Shown here piece after piece: positions 973 through 60,993 of a stretch of 64,000 bases of DNA; within the stretch, counting starts at the first letter, position 1, and each line of letters begins with the position of its first letter. The DNA lies in IMG/VR virus record IMGVR_UViG_2684623126_000004. One strand, written 5' to 3'. Position numbers and translations under genes: made by a program. Below the pieces are notes generated by a model. It had not been told where the DNA came from. It saw nothing but the letters and a program-made list of their open reading frames with translations, and searched no databases. This DNA comes from a virus. Taxonomy: Duplodnaviria; Caudoviricetes.

Positions 973-2265
973 TTGGCAAAACTCACGCACCTGTTGAATG
1001 ACATCCAGATTAGGAACTGGGTGTCGAAAGGCGAAGCCATCGCGCGCTCTGATGGCGATGGCCTCACCTTCACCCTGTCCGACGCCGGCACGGCGACATG
1101 GATCCTTCGCTACCGCATCGGCAAAGGCCGCCGGCGCGAACTCACCATCGGGAACTACCCCGATGTTTCCCTGGCCTCCGCACGCGAGAAGGCCCGCGTC
1201 GCCCGCGTTGCCATCGACGAGGGCCGCGACCCGGCTATCGAAAAGCAAGAAGAAAAGAACCGGGTGCAGGCCGCGTGGAGCGTGCGCGACCTGATCGCCG
1301 ACTACAGGGAAAAGTGTCTGCTGCTCACCGAGTACGCCCAGGACACCATCGACTACCGAAACCGCGACTACGACCAAATCATCATCCCCTACATCGGCGC
1401 GCGCCCCGTGCAGCGCGTCACGGCCATCGACATCGTGTCGATGCTCACCGACTGCAAACGCACCTGGACAGTATCGAAGCGCATCCTCACCTCTGCATCC
1501 AAGCTGTTCGACCATGCCTGCGGCCTGAAAATCATCGCCGCCAATCCCTGCACTGGCGTCAAGCTGAAGTCCATCAAGGGGCCGCGCCCGCCCATCCGAA
1601 AGCGCGTCATGCTGCTGGAAGAAGAGCTGCGCGAACTGCTGCCCGACATCGACTTCATCGGCGTGGAGAACGCCTACGCCTTCCGCATTCTGCTGGCAAC
1701 GTGCGTGCGCGGCGTCGAGCTGGTGAAGGCCAAGAAAGCGCATATCTTCCTTGACCTGGGTATGTGGTGGATACCAGACGAATCGGTGAAGACCCGCCGG
1801 GGCTTCCTCGTGCCCCTCACGCCCGTGGTGGTCGAGTGGTTCCGCGCCCTGTTTGAAATGTCTGGGGAATCCATCTACGTGCTGCCCGCGCGCCAAGAGC
1901 GCCGGCGCCGCAACAAGGGCGGCGATACCCACGTCGGGGAAACGACCCTCTGGGCGGCCATCCGCCGCGCCTTCGAGCGCAAGGACATCGAGATCCGCAA
2001 GTTCACCCCACACGATACCCGCTCAACGGCCAAGGGCCACCTGCGCAACATGGGCGTGTCGTGGGAAGAATCCGAGGTGGCGCTCAACCACAAGCTGGGC
2101 GAGCTGGACGAGATTTACGACGTGCGCGAGGAAAGGCCGGAGCGGCGCGAGGCGCTGGAAAAGTGGTGCGAGTTCATCGTGGCCTGCGAAACGGGCGCGC
2201 CCACGCCGGCGTTCGTCAAGCCAACACAGAGCAGCAACGTCATCCGCCTGTTGTCAGCCGCCTAG
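973..2265 (+). CDS. int: Tyrosine recombinase/integrase with N-terminal arm DNA-binding domain (P4-type)
   Basis: TTG start after GGAGG; N-terminal DGDGL...WILRYR...LTIGNYPDVSLASAR; catalytic R (TCVRGVE), HDTR, LNH, YD. Confidence 0.93.
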   Translation: MAKLTHLLNDIQIRNWVSKGEAIARSDGDGLTFTLSDAGTATWILRYRIGKGRRRELTIGNYPDVSLASAREKARVARVAIDEGRDPAIEKQEEKNRVQAAWSVRDLIADYREKCLLLTEYAQDTIDYRNRDYDQIIIPYIGARPVQRVTAIDIVSMLTDCKRTWTVSKRILTSASKLFDHACGLKIIAANPCTGVKLKSIKGPRPPIRKRVMLLEEELRELLPDIDFIGVENAYAFRILLATCVRGVELVKAKKAHIFLDLGMWWIPDESVKTRRGFLVPLTPVVVEWFRALFEMSGESIYVLPARQERRRRNKGGDTHVGETTLWAAIRRAFERKDIEIRKFTPHDTRSTAKGHLRNMGVSWEESEVALNHKLGELDEIYDVREERPERREALEKWCEFIVACETGAPTPAFVKPTQSSNVIRLLSAA

Positions 2266-3318
2266 CATGAGCTTGTCGGGGATGTCGCGCAGGCCGGGCA
2301 CCAGCACCAGATCACCCAACACGCCTTCAACGGTGCGGTGGGCGTTGCAATGCTTGGCGTAGGCGAGGAACGACATCACGCGCTGGCGCACGTCGGGTAG
2401 ATCGACCTCGCCGGCGAAATACTGGGTCATGAGCCGGCGGAAGTCAGCGCGGGCGCGCTTGATATTGCGCTTGCGCGGGAGGATATGCGTCGGCCAGATG
2501 CGGTAGCCGCAAAAGTCCACGCCGCGCTGCCACGGGTGAATCGCGGTCTTCGGGTTGAGCGACAGGCCCAGGCTATTGACGACCTTTTCCAGGGCCTGTA
2601 GCACGCGCTGGGCTTCAGCCTTGCCCTGCACCACCACCACGAAGTCGTCCATGTACCGCACGTAGAAGCGCAGGCCCATGTCGTCCTTGGCGATGTGATC
2701 GAGGCGGTTCAACAAGACGTTCGCCGCGAGCTGGCTGGTCAGCGCACCGACTGGCAGGCCCAGCCCGGCCTCGTGGCCGTATCCGCTGATGATTTGCCGC
2801 CAGAGCCAGAGCACGCCAGGATCCGAAATGACCCGCTCCACCTCGTCCATGAGAATGTGATGCTGGATGCTGGCGAAATACTTGCTGATGTCCGCCTTCA
2901 CCACATAGATGTCGTCGCCCCAGTTCCGCTTCGCCACGCGCAGGAAGTGCTGCACGCGCATGACGGCGCGCTGGGTGCCTTTGCCCTCGCGGCAAGCGTA
3001 GCTGTCGTAAATGAACCGGCGCTCGAAGTGCGGCTCCACGACCTGCACCAGCGCATGGTGAACGACGCGATCTTGAAATGGTGGCGCCTGAATCAGGCGT
3101 AGCTTGGGCTCGCGCACCACGAACTCGCGTTGCGGGCCGGGCTTCCAAGTCTTCCAGAGCATGTGATTCTGGATGTTGAAGAGGTGCTCTTCAGCCTCTA
3201 CCGCGAACTGCATTACCTCGTTGCGATACCGCTTTCCATCGCGGGCGCCCATGTAGGCCAGGTGCAGATTTTCAAAGGAGGTGAGTTCGTCCCAAAGACC
3301 ATTCACAGTGCGCGGCAT
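2254..3318 (-). CDS. DGR reverse transcriptase (bRT-like), 354 aa
   Basis: RT motifs FQDRVVH, GLPVGALTSQ (DGR-type [LIV]GxxxSQ), YVRYMDDF, GVDFCGY; no maturase or endonuclease domain; adjacent to TR and avd. Confidence 0.95.
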   Translation of the reverse strand: MPRTVNGLWDELTSFENLHLAYMGARDGKRYRNEVMQFAVEAEEHLFNIQNHMLWKTWKPGPQREFVVREPKLRLIQAPPFQDRVVHHALVQVVEPHFERRFIYDSYACREGKGTQRAVMRVQHFLRVAKRNWGDDIYVVKADISKYFASIQHHILMDEVERVISDPGVLWLWRQIISGYGHEAGLGLPVGALTSQLAANVLLNRLDHIAKDDMGLRFYVRYMDDFVVVVQGKAEAQRVLQALEKVVNSLGLSLNPKTAIHPWQRGVDFCGYRIWPTHILPRKRNIKRARADFRRLMTQYFAGEVDLPDVRQRVMSFLAYAKHCNAHRTVEGVLGDLVLVPGLRDIPDKLMLGG

Positions 3319-3478: not shown

Positions 3479-3585
3479 TTTGCGAGGCGACCGCCGATAT
3501 TCGTGTTGACGTTCGACGCGGGATTGTTGACGTTCAGGCAGAAGAGCCCGTCGTTCGCGCCGTTGTCCCAATTGCCGCCGTTATA
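3479..3585 (-). repeat. DGR template repeat (TR), 107 nt, 10 AAC/AAT codons
   Basis: Minus strand TATAACGGCGGCAATTGGGACAACGGCGCGAAC...GGCGGTCGCCTCGCAAA; aligns without gaps to 4959-5065 and 60305-60411 with mismatches almost only at TR adenines. Confidence 0.97.
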
Positions 3586-3618
3586 AGCCCTTGCCCGTTC
3601 AAAAACCGGGGTGGTGCT

Positions 3619-3972
3619 CTACGACATGGCGGCTCCTTCGTGCTTGATCCACGCGCCGACCATGCGGCCAATTTCGTTCGTGTGTTTCATCCAGACTTCC
3701 AGGCGATGCGTGTTGATGTATTCGAGGCGATGGGCCTTGCGGATGAAGTGCCGGAACACCTCGATTTCCACGTCCAAGTCGAAAAGCGACGAAGCCTTCT
3801 GTCGGCGCTTCCACGCCACGACGGCCAGGCGGCATACCTTATTCATGGCCGCCCGCATTTCCGCGCAAAGCAAGTGCCTTTCCAGCTTCGGGAACTGATG
3901 CAGCACGGTATGCGTGTAGGCATCGAGCTCTTCCAACTTGGTGATGAGCTTCAGGTATGCGTCGTTTTTCAA
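3619..3972 (-). CDS. avd: DGR accessory variability determinant (Avd-like four-helix bundle)
   Basis: 117 aa, basic and helical; FPKLERHLL and EIGRMVGAW motifs; directly upstream of TR; TTG start overlaps upstream TGA. Confidence 0.92.
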   Translation of the reverse strand: MKNDAYLKLITKLEELDAYTHTVLHQFPKLERHLLCAEMRAAMNKVCRLAVVAWKRRQKASSLFDLDVEIEVFRHFIRKAHRLEYINTHRLEVWMKHTNEIGRMVGAWIKHEGAAMS

Positions 3973-4951: not shown

Positions 4952-7516
4952 TTACACCTTTGCGAGGCGACCGCCGAGACCCGTGCTGCCGCTCGACGCG
5001 GGACTGCCGACGCTCAGGCAGAAGAGCCCGTCGCCCGCGCCGCCGTCCCAATTGCCGCCGTGATAGGCGACGCAGTTCGCAGCCGACCAGAAGGCGTCCG
5101 CATACGTGCCGTTCGAGGCCGAAGCGTCGATGGTGGCGGGCAGGAACACTTGCGACAGGTCGTAGTTCGCGCCGGCATCCACGGACATCGTGACCGGGTA
5201 GGAGGCCGAAGCCGACGGCGCCACCTGGTTCGTGGTGATGTAGGTCTTGTTGCCCTGTTTGTCCCAGATTTTGTATTTCAGGCTGGCGTCGGTTTGCAGT
5301 CCATCGACCATCTGCCAGACGTTCGACCAGAGGCCGATAATGCCGCGCCACGAGGCTTGCGAGGTGGGCGACGCATCGACGTTGGTAGCGCCGGAACTGT
5401 TCGAGTTGCCTTGGCCGACCAAGGTCTGGGCGTCAGGGTTGCCCAGTTCGATGAGGGCCAGCATCTGGATGGCGGAGAGTTGGTAGATGTTCCACAGCGA
5501 GAAGCCCGTAACGCCCCCGGTGTTGCGCGCGTTCGCGCGGGCCTGCATCGTCGGGAAGTCGATGGAAACCAGCGGCCCGACGGCAGCCACGGACGCCAGC
5601 TTGTTGCCGGAGGCGTTCGAGCCCTGATACTTGCCGACCCAATACTGGGCCAGGTCAGCGCCGGCGTTCTTGAAAGCCGGGTGAATCTCGAAGCCGGTTT
5701 CCTTCTTGTCCGAAACCCAGATGGCCTTCTTTCCGACGTAGGCGCCGGACGCCACGATGCCGGTCTTGATGTAGAAGGCGGGCACCTTCACCATCGCCTG
5801 GCTGTCCAGGGTCTGATCGACGATACCGGCATAGGTCGGGTGGGCGTTGAAGAAGGCGGCATCGGTGGCCTTGGCGTTGCCGTCCTCGTCGATGCGTGCC
5901 CACGAACCGGAAGTCGCGCCAGTCGAAACCAGAGCGATACCGATCACCGTGCCGAAAATCTTTTTCGTAGTGAACTTCGTCTCCACCGACCATTCCGACC
6001 AGCCGATGGTTGCGCCCTTGTGGCGGACGCGCCAGAAGTATTGCGTGTTCGAGGACTTCAGCAGGCCGGCAGGAACGGCCAGCGAGGTCAGATGCGTGGC
6101 GTCCTCGCCGCTGTCGTAGGTGGAGGCGTCGTAGGACGCGCTGGCCTCGCGGATTTGCCATTGGGCCGCCGCTTGGGTGTCCGCACCCGCATAGACCGCG
6201 AAGGCGCTGGACGACAGCGTGGGCGTGTCGGCGACGTTGGTCAGGTTGTTGGCCGGGCCAACGTTCGACGGGGCCTGCACATACACGAACGACGCGGCGG
6301 TGGAGAACGAAACCGGGTCAGACCACGGCGACCACGCGCCTTCGGCGTCGCGCGCGCGGCCACGGGCGAAGTAGTCATGGCTGGTTTGCAGGCGCAGGCC
6401 GATTTCCTGCCAGGACAGGCCGCCCACCTGCGTGCCGCTGTCGATGATGACCTCGGCGAAGTCGGCGGTGGCGGAGACTTGGAATTGCACGGCGCCCACG
6501 GGCGTATCGGTGGGCGAAACGTAGCCGGTCAGGCCCAGCGTCGGGCGGTCGGTCAGGTTTTCAGCGCCATCGACGGGGTTGGACATGGCAGGCTTGAGCG
6601 GAGGCGTGTGCGTGCCGCGCAGGCCCGTGGTGGAGCCCAGGCCAATGATGTGCTGGATCTCGGTATTGCCAGCGCCGCCCACGACGGTCACGCGCAGCGC
6701 GGTGTCGCCATTGACGAGCAATTCGTACTCGCAGTCGATGTAGCCCGCCGGCACTTTGCCGCCTTCGCGCGTCCATGCCAGCGGCGCGGACACCCAGTCG
6801 CCATCGATCAGAAAATCGACGTTCACAACGGATGCGGTGGGCGTGCGGCGGATTACGACGGCGCGCTTGACGCCATCGAAGCCCAGATTGATGGGCTTGG
6901 AGAAGTAGGCCGCGCCCGGCTTGGCCTGCGCGGTGCCGTTAGCGACGGCAAACGAGGTGCGCGCGAGGAACGCGCCGGCGCCGCCGTAGGCGTTTGCCAG
7001 CGGGTCAGAAATGCGGATGCGGGTGCCGTTCAGCACAGCATTGACATGAACCTGCTCGGCGTGCGTCGCGTTGTAGATGACATAGTTCTGGCCGGGCGTG
7101 AAGAAGCTGCTGTCGGTCACGTCGATGGAATCGTCGCCGGCGACGGCAGAGGTCACGGCGATGGGCTGCGTGTCGGTCAGCGTGTATTCGCCGGCCCACA
7201 TTTCAAGGCTGATGTTGTTGCCCGAATAGTCCCAGTCCAGGCGCACCGCACGCGCCAGCATGGGCGCGGTCATGCCCTGCAAGTCGCCGATGTCGCCGCC
7301 CAGGTCTGCGACGGCCTGCGCCACCTGGTTCATCTTTTCGGCGAAGGTGGGCGCATCGCCCTTGGCGGCGTTCAGCTCGTCTTCGACGCTCACCTGGCGC
7401 TCGTCGAGGGCGGAGAAGTTCTCGTCGATTTCCTGGTAGCGCGTGTTCCACAGCGAGGGGACGGCATCCGGCTCGTTGTTCGGAATCGGCGTGATGTTTT
7501 GGTTGGGCAGGGACAT
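4952..7516 (-). CDS. Tail fibre/receptor-binding protein, 854 aa, with two FN3-like repeats and a C-terminal C-type-lectin-like domain; DGR target 1
   Basis: ATG at 7516 after GAAAGGAG; last gene of baseplate operon before chaperone; tandem W-S-x-W-S beta-sandwich repeats; C-terminus YHGGNW...GGRLAKV is VR1. Confidence 0.9.
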   Translation of the reverse strand: MSLPNQNITPIPNNEPDAVPSLWNTRYQEIDENFSALDERQVSVEDELNAAKGDAPTFAEKMNQVAQAVADLGGDIGDLQGMTAPMLARAVRLDWDYSGNNISLEMWAGEYTLTDTQPIAVTSAVAGDDSIDVTDSSFFTPGQNYVIYNATHAEQVHVNAVLNGTRIRISDPLANAYGGAGAFLARTSFAVANGTAQAKPGAAYFSKPINLGFDGVKRAVVIRRTPTASVVNVDFLIDGDWVSAPLAWTREGGKVPAGYIDCEYELLVNGDTALRVTVVGGAGNTEIQHIIGLGSTTGLRGTHTPPLKPAMSNPVDGAENLTDRPTLGLTGYVSPTDTPVGAVQFQVSATADFAEVIIDSGTQVGGLSWQEIGLRLQTSHDYFARGRARDAEGAWSPWSDPVSFSTAASFVYVQAPSNVGPANNLTNVADTPTLSSSAFAVYAGADTQAAAQWQIREASASYDASTYDSGEDATHLTSLAVPAGLLKSSNTQYFWRVRHKGATIGWSEWSVETKFTTKKIFGTVIGIALVSTGATSGSWARIDEDGNAKATDAAFFNAHPTYAGIVDQTLDSQAMVKVPAFYIKTGIVASGAYVGKKAIWVSDKKETGFEIHPAFKNAGADLAQYWVGKYQGSNASGNKLASVAAVGPLVSIDFPTMQARANARNTGGVTGFSLWNIYQLSAIQMLALIELGNPDAQTLVGQGNSNSSGATNVDASPTSQASWRGIIGLWSNVWQMVDGLQTDASLKYKIWDKQGNKTYITTNQVAPSASASYPVTMSVDAGANYDLSQVFLPATIDASASNGTYADAFWSAANCVAYHGGNWDGGAGDGLFCLSVGSPASSGSTGLGGRLAKV
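4959..5065 (-). repeat. DGR variable region VR1
   Basis: Versus TR: 14 substitutions at adenines (12 A>G, 2 A>C) and one T>G. Confidence 0.96.
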
Positions 7517-7530
7517 GGGGGGAGCTCCTT

Positions 7531-7917
7531 TCAGAATCGCATCTTCAGATTGACGCCATAGGTTTCCCCGTTCTCCAGGTACTTCGGCGCAAAGGTTTTC
7601 CAGCAAACAAGGTTGCCGTCGGTGTCGAGCAAGGCCGCCTCGGAGAGAGCGCCGGCATTGAGGTCGTCGGATTCGACGACGCCCTTCCCGGTGGCGGAAT
7701 ACAGGTCTTCTTGAACCAAGGCCGTGACGGGCTTGCGCTTGACCTCGTGGTAGAGGCCGGCGGCGCCGCTGTCGGCGGGCTTGGCGGTGTTGTCGGGGTT
7801 GTGGCCACCGTCGCCGTAGGCGATGAATGCGATGGGCTTGAGTACGCCAGTGCCGGCCATGTGGGCGGCGACGCGGCGGCGGTAGCTATCGGCGACTACG
7901 GCTTCGGGCACGGTCAC
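7531..7917 (-). CDS. Tail-collar/fibre attachment protein (position of P1 gene R)
   Basis: IAYGDGG and LSEAALLD motifs of collar-type proteins; GTGA overlap with upstream gene. Confidence 0.65.
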   Translation of the reverse strand: MTVPEAVVADSYRRRVAAHMAGTGVLKPIAFIAYGDGGHNPDNTAKPADSGAAGLYHEVKRKPVTALVQEDLYSATGKGVVESDDLNAGALSEAALLDTDGNLVCWKTFAPKYLENGETYGVNLKMRF

Positions 7918-10678: not shown

Positions 10679-10681
10679 ACT

Positions 10682-10972: not shown

Positions 10973-10978
10973 ACCCAA

Positions 10979-11019
10979 AGTGTGCGGTGCTGGCAACTAC
11001 AGGAATCACGGTTTTTTCC
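10979..11019 (-). promoter_or_regulatory. Candidate late promoter GGAAAA-N29-CACACT
   Basis: Shares motif and spacing with other intergenic sites in the structural region. Confidence 0.6.
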
Positions 11020-11031
11020 GGGCCGGGCTCG

Positions 11032-13752: not shown

Positions 13753-13753
13753 G

Positions 13754-14659: not shown

Positions 14660-14662
14660 GGG

Positions 14663-16237
14663 TTAGCCCCTCATGCCACCGAACCCGCCGCCCATGCCGC
14701 CATCGTCCTCGGGCGGTTTAGCATCGACGACGCTGGCGTAGAGCTTGGCCTGGTCTTCGTCAAGCATCATGGTCTTCACGAGGAATTCGGTCATCACCTC
14801 CTTGCTCGCGCCCAGCTCCTTCATCATCTGCATGGCCTGGGCCAGCAGCATCCCCGCGTTCATCGAATCAGAGCGCGTGCGCTGCTTCTCGGCTTCCAGG
14901 GCCGAAATAGACCCGAAGAAGTTGATCGTCCAGGGGCGCTCCTTGGGGTCGAACACCACGCCGTAGCGGCGCATGGTGTGGATGTCGATGACGTGGTTGA
15001 AGAAGTCGGACAGCGCCACGCGGATGATGCGCGCGCGCTCGGCGGCCTGCGCGGACACGCGGAAGAAGCCGCCCTCGCCAAGCCCGCCGGAAAGCTGATC
15101 AGCGAAACCCAGCATGGACAAATCGACGCCCAGCGCGCCGGCCAGCATCCGGGCGTGCAGCATCACGTCCTCGATGCTGATGGTCGCAGCGCGGCCAGGT
15201 GCGCCGCCGTTCGCCGGCCCCACTGTGGAAAGCTGCTTTTCGTTGAAAACCGGGATGATGTGGCGGATCCGCTCCATGACCGGGCGGCCAGTTTTCACGG
15301 CCTGCTCGGCGTAGGCTTTCGACGCCATGAGCATAGCCTTGACCGATTCGACGAACCGCTGTTGCTGATCGAGGTTCATGGATTCCAGATTGACCGCCAC
15401 CATCTGCTCGTCAATCGAATCCATCCACCTCTGCCCGACCAAGCCCAGCAGGGATGCCGTGAGATTGTCGTAAGGCCCTTCGGCGCTGTAGAGCAGAGAG
15501 CCGCCGACCATGCTTGGCATGATGGGCAGGCTGTCGATGTCGTCCTCGGAGATTGCCAGGCGCACCGCCTTTTCGACGACACCGTACTGCGGCACCCACT
15601 GGACGCGCGGCATCTTCAAGCGGGCCATCTGCGAAACGTCAAGCCGCTCGAAGCCTCGCTCGCCGGTATAGACGGCGAAACCCACCGTGCGGCTGCCGCG
15701 CTCGAATGGCTGCACCATCGGTGGGCGGATGGTTTCGTCCATGTGGATGTCCACCACGCCGCGCGAGTTCGTGTAGAGGCGCGCGTAGGAATCCCCGAAT
15801 GCGCCGCCGATGTAAGCCGCCTGAAAGGCCGTCTTGTTGAAGAGCGGCGCCAGCTCGGCGGCGATGTCATCGACGATGGCGGAAAGACGCTTGTCCTTCT
15901 TCGTCTCGGACTTCTTTTCGACGAAAACGAGGTCGCCATTGGTTTCGTGCCCACCAAGGGCCGAAGTGACCAGCAGCATGAGAGCCGTCGAAATGATGGG
16001 GTCGCCCTCCATCATCGACCACTTTTCGTAGATGATTTGCCGCGCCCGCGCCCCCTTGCTGCCGGAACCCAGAAGCGATGCAATGGTGGTCGTTCCGGCC
16101 CCGTACATGAAGGCATCGGAAGCCGTGATTTGCTGCGCCGGCGCGATGTGCGACGATGCCCACCGCTTGCGGGACAGGCCAAGCCGGGCCAGGAAGCCGG
16201 GCTTGGGCGGAACGGGGGTGTTGGAAATATCGGCCAT
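14663..16237 (-). CDS. Portal protein (P1 Prt-like)
   Basis: 524 aa; MEGDPIISTAL, FGDSYARLY, LAGALGVDLSMLG, GGLGEGGF segments. Confidence 0.8.
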   Translation of the reverse strand: MADISNTPVPPKPGFLARLGLSRKRWASSHIAPAQQITASDAFMYGAGTTTIASLLGSGSKGARARQIIYEKWSMMEGDPIISTALMLLVTSALGGHETNGDLVFVEKKSETKKDKRLSAIVDDIAAELAPLFNKTAFQAAYIGGAFGDSYARLYTNSRGVVDIHMDETIRPPMVQPFERGSRTVGFAVYTGERGFERLDVSQMARLKMPRVQWVPQYGVVEKAVRLAISEDDIDSLPIMPSMVGGSLLYSAEGPYDNLTASLLGLVGQRWMDSIDEQMVAVNLESMNLDQQQRFVESVKAMLMASKAYAEQAVKTGRPVMERIRHIIPVFNEKQLSTVGPANGGAPGRAATISIEDVMLHARMLAGALGVDLSMLGFADQLSGGLGEGGFFRVSAQAAERARIIRVALSDFFNHVIDIHTMRRYGVVFDPKERPWTINFFGSISALEAEKQRTRSDSMNAGMLLAQAMQMMKELGASKEVMTEFLVKTMMLDEDQAKLYASVVDAKPPEDDGGMGGGFGGMRG

Positions 16238-26200: not shown

Positions 26201-28463
26201 CGATGATGCCGTCCCAATTCACCGCAGCGACGGCGGCATTGATCACTGCGGCGGCGGCGCCGAACGACTGCACGTAGGCGTCGATCAGCTTCTGGGCGTC
26301 GTCCTGCTGGCCGGTTGCCTTGCTGAAAAGAATGTCCTCGCCCTTGACCAGCTTGAGCTTGGCGCGCACGTCATCCACGGTCAGAGACTTCCCGGCGAAG
26401 GCGTCGCCCATTCCGACGAACACATCGGAACGCAGCCATTCCACGATTTCGGCGGGCGTGCCTGCCCGCTCGCGGCCTAGGGTGCCGTCCTTGACGTGCG
26501 CCAGGTAGGCTCCGCCCTGCTCGGTCAGCGTCAGGTAGTCGTTGCTGCGAGACTTGCCCAGCAGGTACACGGCGGCGTATTTCTCGCCGAAAGAGCCTTC
26601 CCACCACTTGGCCGACTTCTTGGCCTGCTCGGCAGCGGCTTCGTCCCCGCCAAGCTCCTTCAGCAGGGCTTCGTCCTCTTCGGGCGTCGTCGCCGGGCTG
26701 GTGTCCTCGGCCACGGTGTAGCCGGCCTCGCGCAGTTGCGCGATGGTCGGTGCAGCATGGGCGGCCAGCACCTTGCCGCCTTCAGCGCCCGGCGTGGCGT
26801 TGATAGTGCTCCACGCCTTTTCGCCTTCCGGCGTGTTCGGGAAGAACGACGTGAAGAGGCCGTCGGCGCTGTTGCGATAGGTGATGTCGGGTTTCTGCTG
26901 CGCCTCCTTCGCGGCCTGTACGCGGCGCGCCACCTCTGCCATCGCCGCCGCATCCACCTGGGCGGCGTAGTCTTCCGGCGTCTTGGTCAGGTCGTCGTCG
27001 ATGCCGTTCATGGCCCAGCCGGCGACGTTGCGGCCCGCGCCGACGTGCGTAAAGGTCGGCTGCACTTCGGCGTCGCCCTTGTAAAGGCGGGTATCGCTCG
27101 GCTCGCGGCCCTCCCAGCCCAGCGCGCGCAGGGCATTTCGGACGGCAACGATGCGGCCCTGGAAGAAGGCGTCGAGGCGGTCTTGCCAGTAGAGTTGCAG
27201 GGCTTCGTCGCCGCGCACCTTGGCGTAGCCCTCGGGCGTGGTCGGGTCGAACTCCGGCTTACCCTCGGCGGCCACCTTCGCCACTTCGAGTTCATGCTGG
27301 GCGGTCGCCAGTTCGGTTTCCAGGGTGGCGATTTCGTCCTTCAGGGTCTGGATGTTCTGCATCCGGGCCGCGCGCGTGGCATTCACGCGCTGGAACGCCT
27401 CGCTGTTCTTCTCGGCCAGGCGCATGATGCGGCGCGCCACCTCGCGGATGTTCAGGTCGGCGCCGCGCTCCGGCGCGACGACGATGGTGATGTCCTTCTT
27501 GTTCAGCAGCCATTTCCACGAGATAACCTCGTCCGCCGGGGCCATCTTGTTCGGCGTCACGTCGGGGTTGTGGAAGAAGATGGTCACGGTCTGGCCGTCG
27601 GACAGCTCGAAAATGGCCGCCACGTTGGCGACGCCGCGCTGCTTGAACGGGTCGGTGACTTGCAGGGCGATTGGCTTCACCTTGTCGCCGGTGCGCTCCA
27701 TGATGCCGCGCAGCAGTTCCATCCGGCGTTCCAGCTTGGCGTAGGGCGTCACCAGCGCGTCGAAGGCCAGTGCGCCATCGGCGTCGTCGATGATTTCCTG
27801 GGCGGTCACGGCATCCAGAAGAAGGCCCTCGCCGCTGTCGGAGCGCCGGATGTCGTACAGCACCTTGTCCAAGGTGGTGTCGTAGGGCAGCGCGTCGGTG
27901 TTCCAGTGAGTTTTCTTCATGGTGTCAAGTCCTTCCTTGGGTAGGGTGTCGGCCCGAAGCGGGCTCTTCAGGTCGCCGTTGTCCAGCCACCACTTGAGTT
28001 GAGAAAGAGAGGCCGGGACGATGCTTTCCAGCCCGTCCCAGCCGCGTTCGTAGCTGTTCAAGTAGGCGGCGCGCGCCGATGCCAGGTCGGGAAAGGCGAG
28101 CATGACTTTGTGCTCGTCGAACTGGCCGCCGATGTTCTGGTTGATGACGTAGGCCCGCTCCGATTCGGGTAGCGGGCCGATGAAGCAATCCACGCCGTCG
28201 CCGTCCGCGCCGGTTGTGCCGCCGATGTAGCCGTAGTGCGCCGCCATGCGGCTAGACCACGCCTTGCCAGTCTTTTCATCCACGCCGGAGCGCGTGCTTC
28301 CGCGCGGCTGCTCGATGGCAAGATTCAGGCCGTACAGGCTCACCCGCCCCACCTTGTAGTTGCCGGCGCGGCACTGGGCTTCCGACGGTTCAGGCGTCAG
28401 GTTTTGGCCGAATGCGCCCTCGTGGGCGGCGCGCTCGATGAGGTGGAGAGGGGTATGGGACAT
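23223..28463 (-). CDS. darA: Giant DarA-like polyvalent virion protein, 1746 aa
   Basis: N-terminal pyrophosphatase-like module (YGYI...GADGDGVDCFIG), DarA_N-like region (ELSDGQTVTIFFH), DUF2958-like module (HLHYF...DWYITE...ELGYISI), DarA_C-like end; next to hdf and darB. Confidence 0.75.
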   Translation of the reverse strand: MSHTPLHLIERAAHEGAFGQNLTPEPSEAQCRAGNYKVGRVSLYGLNLAIEQPRGSTRSGVDEKTGKAWSSRMAAHYGYIGGTTGADGDGVDCFIGPLPESERAYVINQNIGGQFDEHKVMLAFPDLASARAAYLNSYERGWDGLESIVPASLSQLKWWLDNGDLKSPLRADTLPKEGLDTMKKTHWNTDALPYDTTLDKVLYDIRRSDSGEGLLLDAVTAQEIIDDADGALAFDALVTPYAKLERRMELLRGIMERTGDKVKPIALQVTDPFKQRGVANVAAIFELSDGQTVTIFFHNPDVTPNKMAPADEVISWKWLLNKKDITIVVAPERGADLNIREVARRIMRLAEKNSEAFQRVNATRAARMQNIQTLKDEIATLETELATAQHELEVAKVAAEGKPEFDPTTPEGYAKVRGDEALQLYWQDRLDAFFQGRIVAVRNALRALGWEGREPSDTRLYKGDAEVQPTFTHVGAGRNVAGWAMNGIDDDLTKTPEDYAAQVDAAAMAEVARRVQAAKEAQQKPDITYRNSADGLFTSFFPNTPEGEKAWSTINATPGAEGGKVLAAHAAPTIAQLREAGYTVAEDTSPATTPEEDEALLKELGGDEAAAEQAKKSAKWWEGSFGEKYAAVYLLGKSRSNDYLTLTEQGGAYLAHVKDGTLGRERAGTPAEIVEWLRSDVFVGMGDAFAGKSLTVDDVRAKLKLVKGEDILFSKATGQQDDAQKLIDAYVQSFGAAAAVINAAVAAVNWDGIIDTQTMRAELDKLGVASRAGQYDIIGKASQALEAGGIKTWDERLSSLREDPGFAAWSAALDAAASARDRIQSIAKERLIAKGTSEVAALTPETPLADVATAVFHKAGIDTGSQTPQIVAAIEAKDAALAWSILSNLDNKSSAEIFERATGIKLAKTQRDRRPQIDEWAGITAEKRAELEAQRSEAQEAKRRDDNLKWAWNGLTSISVRTTEGTVSNGQDFVKSLFEQGFGEVVARKRGAATSYYVRKGDRITGLKSKNFNGFLKAALAFGGLRQALESLGVAEPQSEKTDAEKIAAVDEAYRFTSATDEFKLWLSESVLKGDYSPFVTAKGMDEAAKRHGAEIEWGEFAGAAMDSVHTIAGEQFDGGEFDTLRAMKKNPKIEDGDVPSKASRDSLVERGYIERRDGYNWLTNEGRDLVASLDDTGHAVAALQQALDVAKNNEPINRSEGNTEQADLEAEVAASIEEAIAILTEGDYEPDEAEVGATFDVETALDSAAGFEVETEVRAVAATKALLNNFSVFLASDEKFAAALDSVSEIATFDSALVPLRSVMSFGASLSGVEMTQEETDRIGAFANDARAISDRLTGRAGAKPEQSPALDGVDDDGYVGKVKKGDQVLGRIDIGDDGKAMVYVGEAGDERVKGSEGRPFMYSEDDAPEMVEALFSAEEQPTTAQAEAFTGPAKDRMDALKVLTDTGMNRWMSEAQNKAVIAGLMGEEWQFFADKMKELAGVIATMPKTYDQDGKGDEAVAHLHYFRGAGDWYITEKDMEGTGTEQAFGLADLYGDGGELGYISIYELTEAGVELDFHFNPKTIGQIRGKTAAEEQPQQTAAPDALPDISPDVPELIAAGFSRVLNNDYVRSVQAGDKKLQFNIRVTEDGFVVRLTVGFSGGITGAAAEIGRTTDVGAAIAIADAEAAKRGAGDGQADPQKDADRALFQSVIDGTVPDILAPDLADTLEAAFNRNQDDPALVTLFEQAVATYQNAMLAATANLS

Positions 28464-28469
28464 GCAGGC

Positions 28470-28510
28470 ATGGTATGGCCCGCGTTGCCCGTTATTTCGG
28501 GTGGTTTTCC
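28470..28510 (-). promoter_or_regulatory. Candidate late promoter GGAAAA-N29-TACCAT, leaderless darA mRNA
   Basis: -10 followed by 6 nt then ATG. Confidence 0.7.
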
Positions 28511-28701
28511 GCCTCAATGTCGGCGGCAAGCTGATGGATGGTGATGCAGATGTCGGCCAGGTCGCGGCCAGCTTTCGACTTCTTGGAGAGGCCCCCGAAG
28601 TAGTCCAGCTCGGCGGCGATGTCGGCCATTTCGTCGGCCATCGCGCGCAGCCGCTTGGCCGGCGCTTCCGGCGGCGACTGCGGCGCGGGACTGCTGCTCA
28701 T
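28492..28701 (-). CDS. Hypothetical 69-aa helical protein
   Basis: Fills gap between hdf and darA in operon direction. Confidence 0.5.
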   Translation of the reverse strand: MSSSPAPQSPPEAPAKRLRAMADEMADIAAELDYFGGLSKKSKAGRDLADICITIHQLAADIEAENHPK

Positions 28702-55270: not shown

Positions 55271-55531
55271 TCATGCAGCAGCCTCGCTTCCAGTCGTCTC
55301 GTTATTTGCAGCAGCGCCAGAGCCGCGCAGGTAGGCCCAATCAACGTCAGGGCGCAGCTCTTCGCACGTCACGGCACCGCCCGTGGCCTTCTCGATGGCC
55401 GGGCAGCGTTCAGCGGGGATGGGCCGGGTGTTGTTCGCCCACTGGGAAATGAGCACGGGCGCAACTTCGAGCGCCCGCCCAAGGGCGGCAGCCCGTCCGC
55501 GTTGCTGATCGATGTAGGTTCGCAGGTTCAT
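55271..55531 (-). CDS. cro: Cro-like repressor (YdaS family)
   Basis: ISQWANNTRPIPAERCPAIEKATGGAVTCEELRPD; divergent from cI. Confidence 0.9.
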   Translation of the reverse strand: MNLRTYIDQQRGRAAALGRALEVAPVLISQWANNTRPIPAERCPAIEKATGGAVTCEELRPDVDWAYLRGSGAAANNETTGSEAAA

Positions 55532-55538
55532 GCTGCGA

Positions 55539-55603
55539 ATAATAGCACGGTGCTACACAAAAGCAATAGCACCGTGCGTCTTCCAATAATTAGCAGGGTG
55601 CTA
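55539..55603. promoter_or_regulatory. Immunity switch: three operators TAGCAC-N-GTGCTA (55543, 55567, 55591; 24-bp period) overlapping the cro promoter (TTGCTT-16-TATTAT, leaderless)
   Basis: Perfect palindrome at 55543-55555 and two variants; same motif at 57432 and 57456. Confidence 0.88.
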
Positions 55604-55616
55604 TGGAATAGAGGGT

Positions 55617-56063
55617 ATGAGAACAATAGAAGAGGTACGTCACGATTGGCTCTTGCGGCTGGTTGAAAAGCACGGCACGGTGGCCGACCTGAACGCCGCG
55701 CTGGGCCGCACGCGCACGGACGCAACCCTCACCCAAATCAAGAACAAAGCGCCCAATACCCGGACTGGGAAGGTCAGGAGCATGGGCAGCGACCTCGCGC
55801 GCGAAATCGAAGAAAAATTAGGGATGGAGCGCGGAACCCTCGATCACGAGCCGAAAGAAACTGCTCAAGTCGGTGATGCGCAAGGGCCTTGGACGGCCTA
55901 CGAGCGCGCGGACGAGGTGCGCCGAGAGCTGGTCAATGCCGTCCTCAACATCGGCAGCGCGCCGCCGTGGCTGGATCCGTCGGCAGTTAAGTTCCTCGTT
56001 GGAATGACGAAGGAAGCTGCCGACAGTTTCAGCGCCGAGAGAAAAAAGAAACCCGCCGCCTAA
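55617..56063 (+). CDS. cI: CI-like immunity repressor without S24 peptidase domain
   Basis: Divergent from cro; MGSDLAREIEEKLGMERGTLD motif; only 148 aa. Confidence 0.8.
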   Translation: MRTIEEVRHDWLLRLVEKHGTVADLNAALGRTRTDATLTQIKNKAPNTRTGKVRSMGSDLAREIEEKLGMERGTLDHEPKETAQVGDAQGPWTAYERADEVRRELVNAVLNIGSAPPWLDPSAVKFLVGMTKEAADSFSAERKKKPAA

Positions 56064-56075
56064 GCTGACGCTCGT

Positions 56076-56924
56076 ATGGTCGAGGGGAACGTAGTGCAAG
56101 AAAAAATCGAAGTCGCCACCGATGACATAGAAACCATCCTGCGCTTCATGCTGGGCTTCTATCACATCAACACGGGCGCCGCCGACGACCTGTTTAATAT
56201 CGAGCCGGCGCACCGCGAGCGCGTCGTGGAAACCGGCATGGCACGCACCGTCGCCCAGCTCGCCAAGCTGGGAATCCCGTGCATCGAAGGAAAGCTGCGC
56301 GGCGGCTCCCTGGTCTTCCTGGGCGACCCAGACCTTGAAGCACACAAGGCACTGTATGGGCCGGGCACCATCTGCGTGTTGGAGAAGCACATGGCCCAGC
56401 ACGATGAGCGCGCCCTGCTCGATGGGTTCGAGGCCAGGGTGAGGCTGGATGGCTCCGACACTTGGCTATGTGTCGGCATCAGCCCCACGGCAGCCTTTGA
56501 AGATGAAGATGAAGAGCCCGAAGAGGAAGAGCCGCCGATGCTCCCTCCGCCATCCACCATGCACGACATCAACCGCGTCGCAGTCATTGCGGCAAGTGCC
56601 GATGGCTTCGGTGTCGTAGCGCGAAACCGCGAGCTACGCGCCGACTTCGTGCGCCCTATTGCGCAGAGCGAGTTGCCTGAATCGGAAGAGTCCATCGTCC
56701 AGGCCATCGCGCAACAGGCCGTGACGTTCTGGGAGTTCGGTGTGGTGCCGATGCGCGCGAAGGAATTAAAATCGAGCGGAAAGAAGATCGCCGAGATTGC
56801 AGAAGCCCTTGGCATCACCAAGCAGCGCGCCGAACGCGCCGTGGGCATGGAAATGAAGCTCACGCTCATTGAGAAGATGGCAGAGTATCAGGCCAAGAAC
56901 GAACAGAAAGGAATCGCACCATGA
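56076..56924 (+). CDS. Hypothetical acidic protein with C-terminal HTH, co-transcribed with cI (alternative GTG start at 56094)
   Basis: Same strand, 12 nt after cI stop; KKIAEIAEALGITKQRAERAV HTH. Confidence 0.75.
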   Translation: MVEGNVVQEKIEVATDDIETILRFMLGFYHINTGAADDLFNIEPAHRERVVETGMARTVAQLAKLGIPCIEGKLRGGSLVFLGDPDLEAHKALYGPGTICVLEKHMAQHDERALLDGFEARVRLDGSDTWLCVGISPTAAFEDEDEEPEEEEPPMLPPPSTMHDINRVAVIAASADGFGVVARNRELRADFVRPIAQSELPESEESIVQAIAQQAVTFWEFGVVPMRAKELKSSGKKIAEIAEALGITKQRAERAVGMEMKLTLIEKMAEYQAKNEQKGIAP

Positions 56925-57358
56925 CCATGCTTCGCACCGCGCTCCTTGCCGCCATGCTGCTGGCCGGCGTAGCGCAGGCCGCACCACCCGCGCTGTCCGA
57001 TCAGCAAATATCGACGATTGCCGGGATGATGTTCCAAGCCTACGCCGAGGGTGGCGTGCCCCAGATGTTCGCCGACGAAATGAAGTGCTGGGACGACGCA
57101 TCGAAGACCAAGCGCGCCGACAAAAACGTGGTGGCCGCCTGCGCCACAGCGGCAATGTCCGGCGGCCTGATCGAGGCATCATTTGCACGCAAGCAGCGGC
57201 GCGGCCCGAGTCCGCAGTACGCCGGCGACGCCATCCGCGCGCGCATATCCGACCTGTCCGGCTTGAATCCCGACGTGCTGCAATCCCTATCCGATGAAAC
57301 CCTGCGGCCAGGCGTACCCGCCATGCTGACCGGCCTACAGGGCGCCGGCATGAGATAG
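56921..57358 (+). CDS. Secreted/periplasmic protein with signal peptide and two Cys
   Basis: LLAAMLLAGVAQA signal peptide; ATGA overlap. Confidence 0.8.
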   Translation: MTMLRTALLAAMLLAGVAQAAPPALSDQQISTIAGMMFQAYAEGGVPQMFADEMKCWDDASKTKRADKNVVAACATAAMSGGLIEASFARKQRRGPSPQYAGDAIRARISDLSGLNPDVLQSLSDETLRPGVPAMLTGLQGAGMR

Positions 57359-57388: not shown

Positions 57389-57420
57389 AGAAGCCCGGCC
57401 ATTTGGCCGGGTTTTCTTTT
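57389..57420 (+). terminator. Rho-independent terminator ending the cI operon
   Basis: CCCGGCCA-TT-TGGCCGGG followed by TTTTCTTTT. Confidence 0.85.
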
Positions 57421-57431
57421 GTCGAAAAATT

Positions 57432-57472
57432 TAGCACGGTGCTATTGACAATGAAAAGCACGGTGCTATCAT
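57432..57472 (+). promoter_or_regulatory. Early promoter (TTGACA-16-TGcTATCAT) with two operators (57432-57444, 57456-57468)
   Basis: Consensus -35, extended -10, operator palindromes matching the cro/cI region; third variant GAGCGCGGTGCTC at 57509. Confidence 0.9.
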
Positions 57473-59122: not shown

Positions 59123-59198
59123 TGCGGCGTAGAGCAGTTGGCAGCTCGCCGGCTTCATAAGCCGGAGGTCGCTGGTTCGATTCCAGCCGCCGCTACCA
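59123..59198 (+). tRNA. tRNA-Met(CAT), initiator-like scaffold, encoded CCA
   Basis: Full cloverleaf; 1:72 mismatch (U:U), A11:U24, anticodon loop TTCATAA, TTCGATT T-loop. Confidence 0.93.
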
Positions 59199-59443
59199 CC
59201 TTCCGACCCCACTGACAGGCTGGACTGGGAATCAAACCGGGCGCATGTCTGTTCGACCAGCCGGAGGTCGTGGAAACCGGAACGAAAGCGGATGCTGGCC
59301 TGGGATTGCTTCGGCGGTCGTGCGCAGCCAGACGCAGCGAGTAGGACGCGAGCCTGAACGCGCACAGGCCCATGCCGGACATGGTGAAAGCCGGAATCCC
59401 GCTCCTGCCCATCAAGCACCCCATCAACGCAAAGGACATCAAC

Positions 59444-60418
59444 ATGAGCCAAATCGGCATCGTCTTCGGCAAAAAGCACGCGCCCTGGACGCGCATCGAC
59501 AACAGCGGCGCCATCGTCACCCCGGACGCCAGCTTCTTCAGTAACCACCCGACCTTCGCCGGCATCGCCGACGAGGAAATCGACGGCCAGAGCATGGTGC
59601 GCGTGCCGGCCTTCTACTACCGCTCCGACATCGTGCGCGACGGCCCGCTGCTGGGCAAGAAGGCGCTCTGGGTGAGCGACGAACCCGCCGAAGGCTACGC
59701 GCTGCATCCGGCCTTCCGCAACAACGGCGCCGACCTCGCGCAATACTGGCTGGGCAAGTACCAGGGCACGCCGGACGGCGACGACAAGCTGGGCTCGCAA
59801 GCCGGCCTGATGCCGCTGGCACGCATCGACTTCCCCACCATGCAGGCGCGCGCCGCCGCGCGCGGCGAGGGCTGGATGTTGTGGAGCATTTACCAGCTCG
59901 CGGCCATCCAGGCGCTGGCGCTGATCGAGTGCGGCACGCCCAACGTCAAGTCCATCCTGGGCGAGGGCTACATCGACGGAAACGGCGTGCGCAAGGTCGA
60001 TGACGCCGAGGTGGTGCAGGCGGCCTACCGGGGCATCACGGGCCTCTGGGGCAACGTCTGGCAGATGCTGGACGGCTTGCAGACCGGCGCGAACCGCGAG
60101 TTCCTCATCTGGGACAAGGACGGCCACCGCAACCTGCTCAATACTGGCATCGAAGCGCCGGAGCATGGCTGGATCCACAAGCGCCTGCGCAACGTCGGCG
60201 AGGGATTCGACCTGGGTGCGGCGTTCGTGCCCAAGAAGACCCGCGACGAGCAAGAGGACGCGGCCTACGGCAACTACTCGTGGTTCTGGTCTGGCGGCGT
60301 GGCGTACCACGGCGGCAATTGGGGCGACGGCGCGGCCGGCGGGCTCTTCTGCCTGTACGTCTACAGTCCCGCGTCGCACGTCAGCACGACTGTCGGCGGT
60401 CGCCTCGCAAAGGTGTAA
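59444..60418 (+). CDS. Stand-alone C-type-lectin-like protein, 324 aa, paralogue of the tail fibre C-terminal domain; DGR target 2
   Basis: ATG after AAAGGA; shares HPxFAGI, MVxVPAFY, HPAFxNxGADLAQYWxGKYQG, IDFPTMQARA, GIxGLWxNVWQM with the fibre; ends in VR2. Confidence 0.92.
   Translation: MSQIGIVFGKKHAPWTRIDNSGAIVTPDASFFSNHPTFAGIADEEIDGQSMVRVPAFYYRSDIVRDGPLLGKKALWVSDEPAEGYALHPAFRNNGADLAQYWLGKYQGTPDGDDKLGSQAGLMPLARIDFPTMQARAAARGEGWMLWSIYQLAAIQALALIECGTPNVKSILGEGYIDGNGVRKVDDAEVVQAAYRGITGLWGNVWQMLDGLQTGANREFLIWDKDGHRNLLNTGIEAPEHGWIHKRLRNVGEGFDLGAAFVPKKTRDEQEDAAYGNYSWFWSGGVAYHGGNWGDGAAGGLFCLYVYSPASHVSTTVGGRLAKV
60305..60411 (+). repeat. DGR variable region VR2
   Basis: Versus TR: 13 substitutions at adenines (7 A>G, 4 A>C, 2 A>T) plus one silent T>C at the 5' edge. 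Confidence 0.96.
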
Positions 60419-60481
60419 TGGGTCATGTCGGCATGTGTCATGTATCCGGGCGAGCCTGCCGAGCAGGCCGCCCGGTTTTTT
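60419..60481 (+). promoter_or_regulatory. DGR target-recognition element 2: spacer plus hairpin GGGCG-A-GCCTGC-CGA-GCAGGC-CGCCC (60448-60473), with U-tract so it may also terminate
   Basis: Same architecture as 4895-4951; stem extends by CC/GG and is followed by T6. Confidence 0.85.
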
Positions 60482-60993
60482 CGCAGCGCGAAAAATGGCA
60501 CTCCGGCGATCACGGCGGAAGTGCTTAGGCTCCTTCTGCACTATGACCCCTACACCGGCGTCTTCGCCTGGCGCGCCCCCCCCAGTCGAACCGCGCTCCC
60601 GCCGGAAGCCCGGCAGGAACAATGCGAAACGGCTACGTCCGCATCCGCATCGCGGGAAAGGACTACAACGCGCATCGCCTCGCCTGGCTCTACGTGTTCG
60701 GCGTCTGGCCTGAAAAGCTGGTCGATCACATCAACGGCAGGCGCGACGACAACCGCATCGGCAACCTGCGCGAGCTCTCGAACACCGAGAACCAGCAGAA
60801 CCGCCGCCGCGCTGCGCGGCACAGCAGCACCGGCCTGATAGGCGTCAGCCAAGGCCGGCGTGAGGGCACGTTCCGCGCCCACATCACGCTGAACCGGGAG
60901 CGTCAATTCCTGGGCCACTTCTCCGACCCATTGCAGGCCCAGCAGGCGTACATCGACGCCAAGCGGTGCCTGCATCCGTTCGGAACCATCTGA
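60440..60993 (+). pseudogene. HNH endonuclease with AP2-like C-terminus, split at a C8 tract (60576-60583); start codon uncertain
   Basis: ITAEVLRLLLHYDPYTGVFAW in one frame; GYVRI...AHRLAW...VDHING..DDNRIGNLR...NQQN in another; C9 joins them. Confidence 0.75.

What the first reader, a model, noticed from the sequence alone, without database searches (positions are those of the whole stretch)
59444..60418. A hypervariable stand-alone lectin in the early operon: possible DGR-tuned host-interaction protein
The protein is only the ~320-aa ligand-binding portion of the fibre. It has no virion-attachment region, signal peptide or TM. It lies downstream of a repressor-controlled early promoter among KTSC, tRNA, HNH and recombination genes, the usual place for host-takeover and anti-defence genes. 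Diversifying its binding surface suggests an intracellular arms race, such as binding defence proteins. Alternatives are a swappable fibre tip, a receptor-blocking decoy released at lysis, or a recombination donor for the fibre end.
Basis: partly seen in the sequence, partly recalled or inferred. Interest (0 to 1): 0.88.

Follow-up and report, generated by a model that had tools for sequence, protein, structure and literature searches.

The report
Second, early-operon target of prophage DGR
A dormant virus in this bacterium uses one mutation-writing retroelement to keep rewriting the binding tip of its tail fibre and also of a free-standing copy of that tip encoded among its early genes; the rewriting is real and ongoing, the same layout is already published for gut phages, and what the free protein binds is unknown.

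Summary
ORF 59444-60418 (+, 324 aa) is an active second target of the prophage's single diversity-generating retroelement (DGR: RT 2254-3318, TR 3479-3582, Avd 3619-3972). Its last 104 nt (VR2, 60308-60411) differ from the TR at 13 positions, all TR adenines. It shares the fibre VR1's 3' flank and GC hairpin. Near-identical prophages differ almost only in VR2.

The protein is a soluble, single-domain TaqVP-like C-type-lectin fold, 48% identical to residues 541-884 of the 884-aa fibre. It forms an old separate clade under purifying selection.

It lies 2 kb downstream of a sigma-70 promoter overlapped by repressor operators, in a lambda-PL-like operon. A different 42-kb phage type also puts it behind an operator-covered promoter. 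Early, off-virion expression is therefore likely but not shown.

The "recombination donor" reading is not supported by the tree.

Non-adjacent second targets within prophages (Wu 2018) and a non-structural second target among counter-defence genes (Quimbyvirus, Benler 2021) are already published. This scan has also met early-operon DGR targets on other DNA several times. This is a new member of a known kind.

The parts
59444..60418 (+). Gene for the stand-alone 324-aa CLec-fold variable protein (second DGR target)
   Evidence: RBS and conserved start; 48% identity to fibre residues 541-884.: TaqVP (5VF4) is the only significant solved relative.
60308..60411 (+). VR2, the variable repeat
   Evidence: 13 of 13 mismatches to the TR are at TR adenines (P 1.6e-9). 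It is in frame, and AAC/AAT codons in the TR are recoded.
60393..60428 (+). IMH-like 3' end: a GC-rich stretch shared with the TR, then a 17-nt flank (GGTGTAATGGGTCATGT) shared only by VR1 and VR2
   Evidence: the flank is identical in VR1 and VR2 and differs in the TR (CGAATAGTGCCAGAAGG).
60446..60481 (+). GC hairpin (13 bp with one bulge, loop CGA) followed by T6: DGR target-recognition-type hairpin that also looks like an intrinsic terminator
   Evidence: the same hairpin design lies 30-37 nt after the stop in about 36 fibre loci and in the stand-alone loci, with compensatory stem changes.
3479..3582 (-). TR, the template repeat serving both VR1 and VR2
2254..3318 (-). DGR reverse transcriptase (354 aa, YMDD at 222)
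   Evidence: RVT_1, E 6.7e-27
3619..3972 (-). Avd accessory protein
   Evidence: bAvd PF22296, E 3.9e-24
4952..7606 (-). 884-aa tail fibre, the first target, with VR1 at 4959-5062
   Evidence: phrog_5302 tail protein
57434..57472 (+). PL-like promoter TTGACA-16-TATCAT (TG-extended) overlapped by two GCACGGTGCTAT operators
   Evidence: The 12-mer occurs six times in the window (0.31 expected), only here and at 55542-55604.
55542..55604 (.). OR-like operator cluster between the Cro-like gene (55271-55531, -) and the repressor gene (55617-56063, +)
59123..59198 (+). tRNA-Met in the same operon, 245 nt upstream of the gene

Best explanation
ORF 59444-60418 is a working second target of the prophage's single DGR.

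Shown here:
- The RT/Avd pair copies the TR (3479-3582) into adenine-mutagenised cDNA. That cDNA replaces VR2 (60308-60411), 56 kb away on the other strand.
- VR2 carries the same IMH-like flank and GC hairpin as the fibre's VR1.
- The product is a soluble, single-domain, TaqVP-like C-type-lectin-fold protein.
- It is an old paralogue of the fibre's distal domain. Its scaffold is under purifying selection while about 12 surface positions are redrawn.

Inferred:
- The gene is transcribed with the lambda-PL-like early-left operon, from a sigma-70 promoter covered by repressor operators.
- It is therefore silent in the lysogen and made early after infection or induction.
- It most likely acts off the virion as a free binding protein whose specificity the DGR keeps re-drawing.

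Its ligand is unknown. Candidates are variable host or rival-phage proteins inside the infected cell, or surface structures met after release at lysis.
For: - Target status: all 13 VR2 mismatches are at TR adenines and none at the 77 other positions, while the gene body is only about 71% identical in DNA to the fibre.
- Shared 3' flank and hairpin.
- Intact RT and Avd.
- In five other phages that carry both genes, VR2 follows that phage's own TR at non-adenine positions.
- Ongoing diversification: members of the cluster at 90% identity or more differ almost only in the VR. In six close pairs there are 11-16 changes in the 45 VR residues against 3-23 in about 280 body residues.
- Body dN/dS is 0.03-0.30.
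- Fold: 5VF4 (TaqVP) by sequence (E 1e-5) and by Foldseek (probability 1.0).
- No signal peptide or TM.
- Old, separate clade (100/100).
- Early context: lambda-like switch with Cro/cII on the minus strand and the repressor on the plus strand.
- Operator 12-mers occur only between Cro and the repressor and over the promoter at 57445-57472.
- The scan found no plus-strand terminator between that promoter and the gene, and no promoter in the 245-nt gap after the tRNA.
- Same operon position in 10 of the 12 IMG/VR loci and in further genome loci.
- In the unrelated 42-kb B. hinzii-type phage, the gene's operon starts at TTGACA-17-AATAAT overlapped by the palindrome TTAGACAAGTCTAA. That palindrome recurs only in the immunity region.
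Against: - Expression timing and location were not measured.
- The protein is homologous to a tail-fibre tip, and its only PHROG match with a function is 'tail protein'.
- Related phages use equally short single-domain CLec proteins in the tail module, so the architecture does not exclude docking on the virion.
- In the 42-kb phage type and in contig L112 the gene lies right after RT and attP on the same strand as the late genes.
- A strong hairpin plus T6 follows the gene. In some relatives a second terminator follows, so it may end a short unit rather than belong to a long early operon.
- No ligand or partner is indicated, and no neighbouring gene is conserved across contexts.
Confidence: 0.6

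Rival explanations
1. It is a virion protein: a second, separately encoded receptor-binding tip that docks on the tail or fibre. This would give each particle two independently diversified specificities, as proposed for paired Mtd-like targets in Faecalibacterium phages.
For: - It is paralogous to the fibre tip and matches phrog_5302 'tail protein'.
- Every experimentally studied phage DGR target is a receptor-binding protein (PMC8144416).
- Relatives G302 and G303 have a split fibre with a free 351-383-aa CLec protein in the tail module.
- In L112 and the B. hinzii type, the gene directly follows the DGR cassette on the late strand.
- A two-Mtd proposal is in PMC11792537.
Against: - In this phage and its closest relatives the gene is on the opposite strand, about 50 kb from the tail module, behind a repressor-controlled promoter.
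- Even in the 42-kb type it has its own operator-covered promoter after attP.
- There is no N-terminal extension beyond the domain.
- The closest solved relative, TaqVP, is a monomer (PMC6328139).
- The gene persists intact in phages whose fibre tip has been replaced by an unrelated CLec protein.
Confidence: 0.25
2. It is a lysogen-expressed accessory gene (a moron). It would be made from the prophage and give the host a diversifiable binder, for example against superinfecting phages.
For: - A terminator-like hairpin plus T6 lies right after the gene.
- There is a 245-nt untranslated gap upstream.
- Its position within the operon varies between phages.
- GC3 is slightly higher than in its neighbours (0.92 against 0.77-0.88).
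Against: - The scan found no promoter in the gap.
- In some relatives the gene follows the preceding ORF by only 40-80 nt.
- Where a promoter is seen, operator sequences cover it, so it should be off in the lysogen.
- The hairpin is explained as the DGR recognition element, since it also follows VR1, which has no T run.
Confidence: 0.07
3. It is a by-product or reservoir. The copy keeps the IMH and hairpin and so is hit by the cDNA, but its diversification has no use of its own. It would serve at most as a sequence donor for the fibre end.
For: - VR1 and VR2 share identical flanks.
- In G303 and G302 the gene persists although its template is out of step or missing.
Against: - The scaffold is under strong purifying selection (dN/dS 0.03-0.30).
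- It is a deep, well-separated clade found in prophages of many Beta- and Gammaproteobacteria.
- No exchange with the fibre is seen outside the VR.
- The two repeats are inverted on the chromosome, so recombination between them would invert about 55 kb.
Confidence: 0.05

Closest known systems
Quimbyvirus ('Quimbyviridae') DGR with two targets (Benler et al. 2021, Microbiome, PMC8008677)
   Same: One RT and TR serve a CLec target next to the tail genes and a second CLec target far from the structural module. The second lies on the opposite strand among nuclease, methyltransferase and tRNA-related genes. The authors read it as non-structural and involved in phage-host conflict.
   Different: That is a lytic-looking Bacteroides phage of another lineage, with no detectable sequence relation. 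Here the second target is a full paralogue of the fibre tip. It sits in a temperate lambda-like genome, and the operon can be tied to repressor operators.
Non-adjacent target genes of phage-associated DGRs (Wu et al. 2018, NAR, PMC5758913)
   Same: That survey reports 'many examples' of one target adjacent to the DGR and one elsewhere in the same prophage, within 50 kb.
   Different: The survey did not analyse which operon the second target lies in, or its regulation. I could not check whether this prophage is in its tables, because the supplements are not held.
Bordetella phage BPP-1 DGR (mtd-avd-TR-brt) and its target-site rules (Guo et al. 2011, PMC3240598)
   Same: Adenine-specific TR-to-VR transfer into the C-terminal CLec domain; an IMH at the VR end; a GC-rich hairpin a few to 34 nt downstream that is needed for homing.
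   Different: BPP-1 has one target, Mtd, a trimer with extra N-terminal domains on the fibre tips. Here there are two targets. The hairpin has a 3-nt C(G/A)A loop rather than the 4-nt GRNA loop, and lies about 30-37 nt after the stop codon.
TaqVP, variable protein of a Thermus aquaticus prophage DGR (PDB 5VF4; PMC6328139)
   Same: It is the only significant solved relative by sequence and by fold. It is a single-domain, FGE-type CLec protein of similar size (381 aa), prophage-encoded, and monomeric.
   Different: Identity is about 20%. TaqVP is the cassette-adjacent, sole target of its DGR, and its function is also unknown.

Membership tests
DGR target gene (variable protein with VR) | A VR/TR pair whose differences fall at TR adenines | tested here: met
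   13 of 13 mismatches at adenines; 0 of 77 other positions changed; P 1.6e-9
DGR target gene (variable protein with VR) | A DGR-type reverse transcriptase and accessory protein in the same element | tested here: met
   RVT_1 E 6.7e-27, YMDD present; bAvd E 3.9e-24
DGR target gene (variable protein with VR) | An IMH at the 3' end of the VR that differs from the TR's counterpart | tested here: met
   The 17-nt flank is identical in VR1 and VR2 and different in the TR. Function was not assayed.
DGR target gene (variable protein with VR) | A GC-rich hairpin just downstream of the VR (7-10 bp stem, 4-nt GRNA loop in Guo 2011) | tested here: inconclusive
   The hairpin is present and conserved with compensatory changes at both target types. 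Its loop is 3 nt, C(G/A)A, and it lies 30-37 nt after the stop codon, around the upper end of the published 4-34 nt VR-to-hairpin range.
DGR target gene (variable protein with VR) | The VR lies in a C-terminal CLec-fold domain | tested here: met
   5VF4 matches by phmmer (E 1e-5) and by Foldseek (probability 1.0). The model is of moderate quality: pLDDT 68, and the VR itself is below 50.
DGR target gene (variable protein with VR) | Variation seen between otherwise near-identical copies | tested here: met
Tail fibre / virion receptor-binding protein | Encoded in the structural (late) module | tested here: not met
   Opposite strand, about 50 kb from the fibre, in the PL-like operon
Tail fibre / virion receptor-binding protein | A domain that anchors it to the tail | tested here: not met
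   The alignment starts at the fibre's domain boundary (residue about 556), with nothing upstream. Tail-module CLec proteins of relatives are equally short, so this test is weak.
Tail fibre / virion receptor-binding protein | Present in purified virions | not testable with these tools
   No proteomics; no close isolated phage in the phage collection
Non-structural second DGR target of a phage (Quimbyvirus type) | Same TR as a structural target; far from the structural module on the other strand; among DNA-modification, nuclease or tRNA genes | tested here: met
Moron (autonomous prophage-expressed unit) | Its own promoter and terminator, active in the lysogen | tested here: not met
   Terminator-like hairpin present, but no promoter found in the gap, and the operon promoter is covered by operators. 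Expression was not measured.

The most novel reading that the evidence does not exclude
The phage uses its DGR as an antibody-like generator for an intracellular, early-expressed binder. VR2 variants would be selected because they neutralise variable host defence proteins or proteins of rival phages in the newly infected cell. Targeted hypermutation in temperate Proteobacteria phages would then serve counter-defence as well as adsorption.
Probability: 0.25. Interest if true: 0.85.

Novelty: new member of a known kind. Interest (0 to 1): 0.5.

Why it matters
Nearly all that is known of phage DGR function comes from one tail-fibre protein. Second targets outside the structural genes have been reported, but none has a known ligand or a measured time of expression.

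This family is a tractable case:
- a cultivable-type host group (Bordetella, Pandoraea, Comamonas, Pseudomonas and relatives);
- a temperate phage with a clear lambda-like switch;
- a 35-kDa soluble protein with a solved relative;
- many natural VR2 alleles on an almost constant scaffold;
- natural controls in which the template is out of step or the fibre tip has been replaced.

Showing whether it is made early, and what it binds, would settle whether phage DGRs act beyond host recognition.

Tried and rejected

Searches that found nothing useful:
- Pfam, NCBIfam and PADLOC give nothing for the protein.
- The phage collection has no close relative; the best tblastn hit is 30% identity.
- A protein search of 300 species-representative genomes of the host's family found no other copy.
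- The Wu 2018 supplements are not held.
- Rfam finds only the tRNA in 55-64 kb and nothing in the DGR region.

Readings considered and rejected:
- The annotated 59372 start: no RBS, and not conserved.
- Recombination donor or concerted evolution with the fibre: the clades are clean.
- A conserved partner gene next to the target: none across contexts.
- "Always in the early-left operon": the 42-kb phage type and L112 place it after RT and attP on the late strand.
- G303 as a DGR dedicated to the stand-alone gene: its TR-B matches only that gene, but with about 10 internal non-adenine mismatches, so the pair is out of step.

Full report
WHAT IS THERE

The window lies in a 6.17-Mb, single-contig chromosome. 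It is almost filled by a prophage of about 75 kb. Host riboflavin-synthase-type and other housekeeping genes reach window position about 800. A tyrosine integrase follows at 973-2265 (+). The phage runs past the window's right end to a C5-methyltransferase about 14 kb further on, after which host genes resume.

On the minus strand, at the left end, sits a complete DGR cassette:
- an 884-aa fibre gene (4952-7606);
- a 193-aa ORF;
- Avd (3619-3972; bAvd, E 3.9e-24);
- the template repeat;
- a reverse transcriptase (2254-3318; RVT_1, E 6.7e-27; YMDD intact).

A repeat search finds three related copies of about 120 nt: at 3470-3589, at 4942-5073, and, inverted, at 60297-60428. In ungapped register, the 104-nt core of the copy at 3479-3582 behaves as the template (TR).
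- The fibre's 3' end (VR1, 4959-5062) differs from it at 15 positions, 14 of them TR adenines.
- The 3' end of ORF 59444-60418 (VR2, 60308-60411) differs at 13 positions, all TR adenines.
- None of the 77 non-adenine positions is changed in VR2 (Fisher P 1.6e-9).
- The TR is rich in AAC/AAT codons, and both VRs are in frame.

Just past the TR homology, VR1 and VR2 share 17 nt (GGTGTAATGGGTCATGT) that the TR lacks. About 30-37 nt after the stop codon, each has a GC hairpin of the same design (GGGCG-A-6 bp-C[G/A]A-6 bp-CGCCC). The inner stem has changed in a compensatory way between the two copies.

The same hairpin follows the stop codon in about 36 fibre loci and in the stand-alone loci of relatives. 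More distant fibres carry the 4-nt GRNA loops described for BPP-1-type targets (Guo et al. 2011, PMC3240598). VR2 therefore has the full cis-equipment of a DGR target.

THE PROTEIN

The true start is the ATG at 59444, which has an AAAGGA site upstream and is conserved in all relatives. It is not the annotated 59372.

The 324-aa product has no signal peptide or TM segment. It is 48% identical to fibre residues 541-884, starting right after the fibre's Ig-like domain. Pfam, NCBIfam and PADLOC have no model for it. PHROGs gives phrog_5302, 'tail protein', for it and for the fibre end.

The only significant solved relative is TaqVP (5VF4), by sequence (E 1e-5) and by fold (Foldseek probability 1.0). 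The model is of moderate quality: pLDDT 68, pTM 0.74, and low confidence in the VR. TaqVP is the single-domain, monomeric, prophage-encoded DGR variable protein of Thermus aquaticus (PMC6328139).

IT IS AN OLD, SELECTED AND ACTIVELY REWRITTEN GENE

A search of 5.8 billion proteins returns about 60 full-length homologues of 319-331 aa at 53-93% identity. They come from Bordetella hinzii, Castellaniella, Eoetvoesiella, Alcaligenaceae and many metagenomes. A genome scan adds Xylophilus, Comamonas, Gulbenkiania, Pigmentiphaga, Burkholderia, Azonexus and Pseudomonas.

In IMG/VR the hits fall into two forms: stand-alone genes (322-348 aa, 58-93% identity) and the C-terminal third of fibres of about 855 aa (40-52% identity). 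A maximum-likelihood tree built without the VR separates the two forms with 100/100 support. There is therefore no concerted evolution or domain exchange between them.

Seven viral contigs carry both forms. In the five whose fetched stretch includes the TR, VR2 follows that phage's own TR at non-adenine positions, even though TRs differ between phages. Only continued retrohoming explains this.

Thirteen members of the cluster at 90% identity or more are almost invariant over residues 1-285 and differ at about 12 VR positions. In six close pairs, body dN/dS is 0.03-0.30, while 11-16 of the 45 VR residues differ.

REGULATORY CONTEXT

The immunity region is lambda-like.
- A Cro-like gene (55271-55531), cII, two DNA methyltransferases, replication genes and the late genes are on the minus strand.
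- A 148-aa repressor (55617-56063) and two further ORFs are on the plus strand, ending at a terminator at 57390-57415.
- A near-consensus promoter follows at 57445-57472 (TTGACA-16-TATCAT, TG-extended).

The 12-mer GCACGGTGCTAT (at most 1 mismatch) occurs six times in the window against 0.31 expected. All copies lie between Cro and the repressor, or over the -35 and -10 of this promoter.

Downstream on the plus strand lie KTSC, three small ORFs, tRNA-Met, the lectin gene, an HNH endonuclease, phrog_3657, a YqaJ-type exonuclease, DUF2303, DUF5131 and the C5-methyltransferase, and then attR. This is the layout of the lambda PL operon.

The scan finds no plus-strand terminator between the promoter and the gene, and no promoter in the 245-nt gap after the tRNA. 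In 10 of the 12 IMG/VR stand-alone loci, and in further genome loci, the gene sits in the same operon. Its position there varies, from promoter-proximal to next to the methyltransferase and integrase.

A SECOND ARCHITECTURE TEMPERS AND THEN REINFORCES THIS

In a 42-kb phage type (two copies in B. hinzii, also in Eoetvoesiella) and in MAG contig L112, the order on one strand is fibre, orf193, avd, TR, RT, attP (a tRNA fragment), then the lectin gene. That is a conventional target-RT-target cassette. The family is therefore not tied to an early-left operon as such.

Even so, the gene's operon there starts at its own promoter (TTGACA-17-AATAAT in B. hinzii; TTGACC-18-AATAAT in L112). In B. hinzii this promoter is overlapped by the palindrome TTAGACAAGTCTAA, whose only other occurrence in 21 kb is in the immunity region. 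Two unrelated genome layouts thus put the gene behind an operator-covered sigma-70 promoter.

This is the best available, though indirect, argument for early expression and against late, structural expression.

- Lack of an anchoring domain proves little. Proviruses G302 and G303 have a split fibre whose tip is a free 351-383-aa TaqVP-like protein in the tail module, served by a second DGR. That protein has an even shorter N-terminus.
- In those two proviruses the stand-alone early gene persists intact, but its own template is out of step (about 10 internal non-adenine mismatches) or missing.
- No neighbouring gene is conserved across contexts that could point to a partner.
- Nothing identifies a ligand.

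HOW NEW IS IT

Wu et al. 2018 reported many phage-associated DGRs with one adjacent target and one non-adjacent target in the same prophage (PMC5758913).

Benler et al. 2021 described a Quimbyvirus DGR with a second target far from the structural module, on the opposite strand, among nuclease, methyltransferase and tRNA-ligase genes. They proposed a role in phage-host conflict (PMC8008677).

Baykov et al. 2023 and the Faecalibacterium prophage study also discuss two-target phage DGRs of unclear function.

This scan's own earlier notes list several early-operon DGR targets on other DNA, two of them on stretches that share words with this protein. I used them only as leads and checked the Benler paper myself.

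What this case adds:
- a large Beta- and Gammaproteobacteria family in which the second target is a full paralogue of the fibre tip;
- explicit operator-promoter evidence in two genome layouts;
- natural controls.

VERDICT

The gene is a real, active, second DGR target (near certain). It is probably an early-expressed, off-virion binding protein (about 0.6). A virion role remains a serious rival (about 0.25). It is a new member of a known kind, of moderate interest.

Noticed in passing
window 16763-23209 (-) and 23223-28529 (-): Two giant ORFs lie in the structural region. The 1768-aa one has a DarA-like stretch (NF052326, E 1e-21, below cutoff). The 2148-aa one has an SNF2/DrmD-like helicase stretch. 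They may be P1 DarA/DarB-type injected antirestriction head proteins.
   Followed up: no
window 59258-59275: A short stretch, 'agccggaggtcgtgg', about 60 nt after tRNA-Met repeats part of that tRNA's anticodon-to-T-arm region. It may be a remnant of a partial tRNA duplication.
   Followed up: no
window 56076-57358 (+): Two ORFs (282 and 145 aa) follow the repressor in the same unit and end at a terminator before the PL-like promoter. This is the slot of lambda rexAB. They have no hit in Pfam, PHROGs, NCBIfam or PADLOC.
   Followed up: partly
L096 (provirus G303) 9427-15688: This provirus has two tandem DGRs. One (TR 12598-12712; 11 of 12 mismatches at adenines) serves a free 383-aa TaqVP-like protein that follows a 305-aa fibre-base protein. 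The other (Avd 80% and RT 75% identical to this window's) matches only the early stand-alone gene and is out of step with it.
   Followed up: partly
L005 9054-9105 and L112 5688-5740: A tRNA 3'-half fragment (probable attP core) lies between the RT and the lectin gene in the 42-kb phage type. B. hinzii carries two copies of this prophage at different chromosomal sites.
   Followed up: partly
L004 (Logan contig, 54.9 kb): The contig with the 93%-identical gene ends 4 nt after that gene's stop codon. An assembly break at a hypervariable or repeated VR would explain this.
   Followed up: no
window 60476-60498: The T6 run after the VR2 hairpin is itself the 5' arm of a second, AT-rich hairpin (TTTTTCGC-AGC-GCGAAAAA). 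Together they form a possible bidirectional terminator.
   Followed up: no
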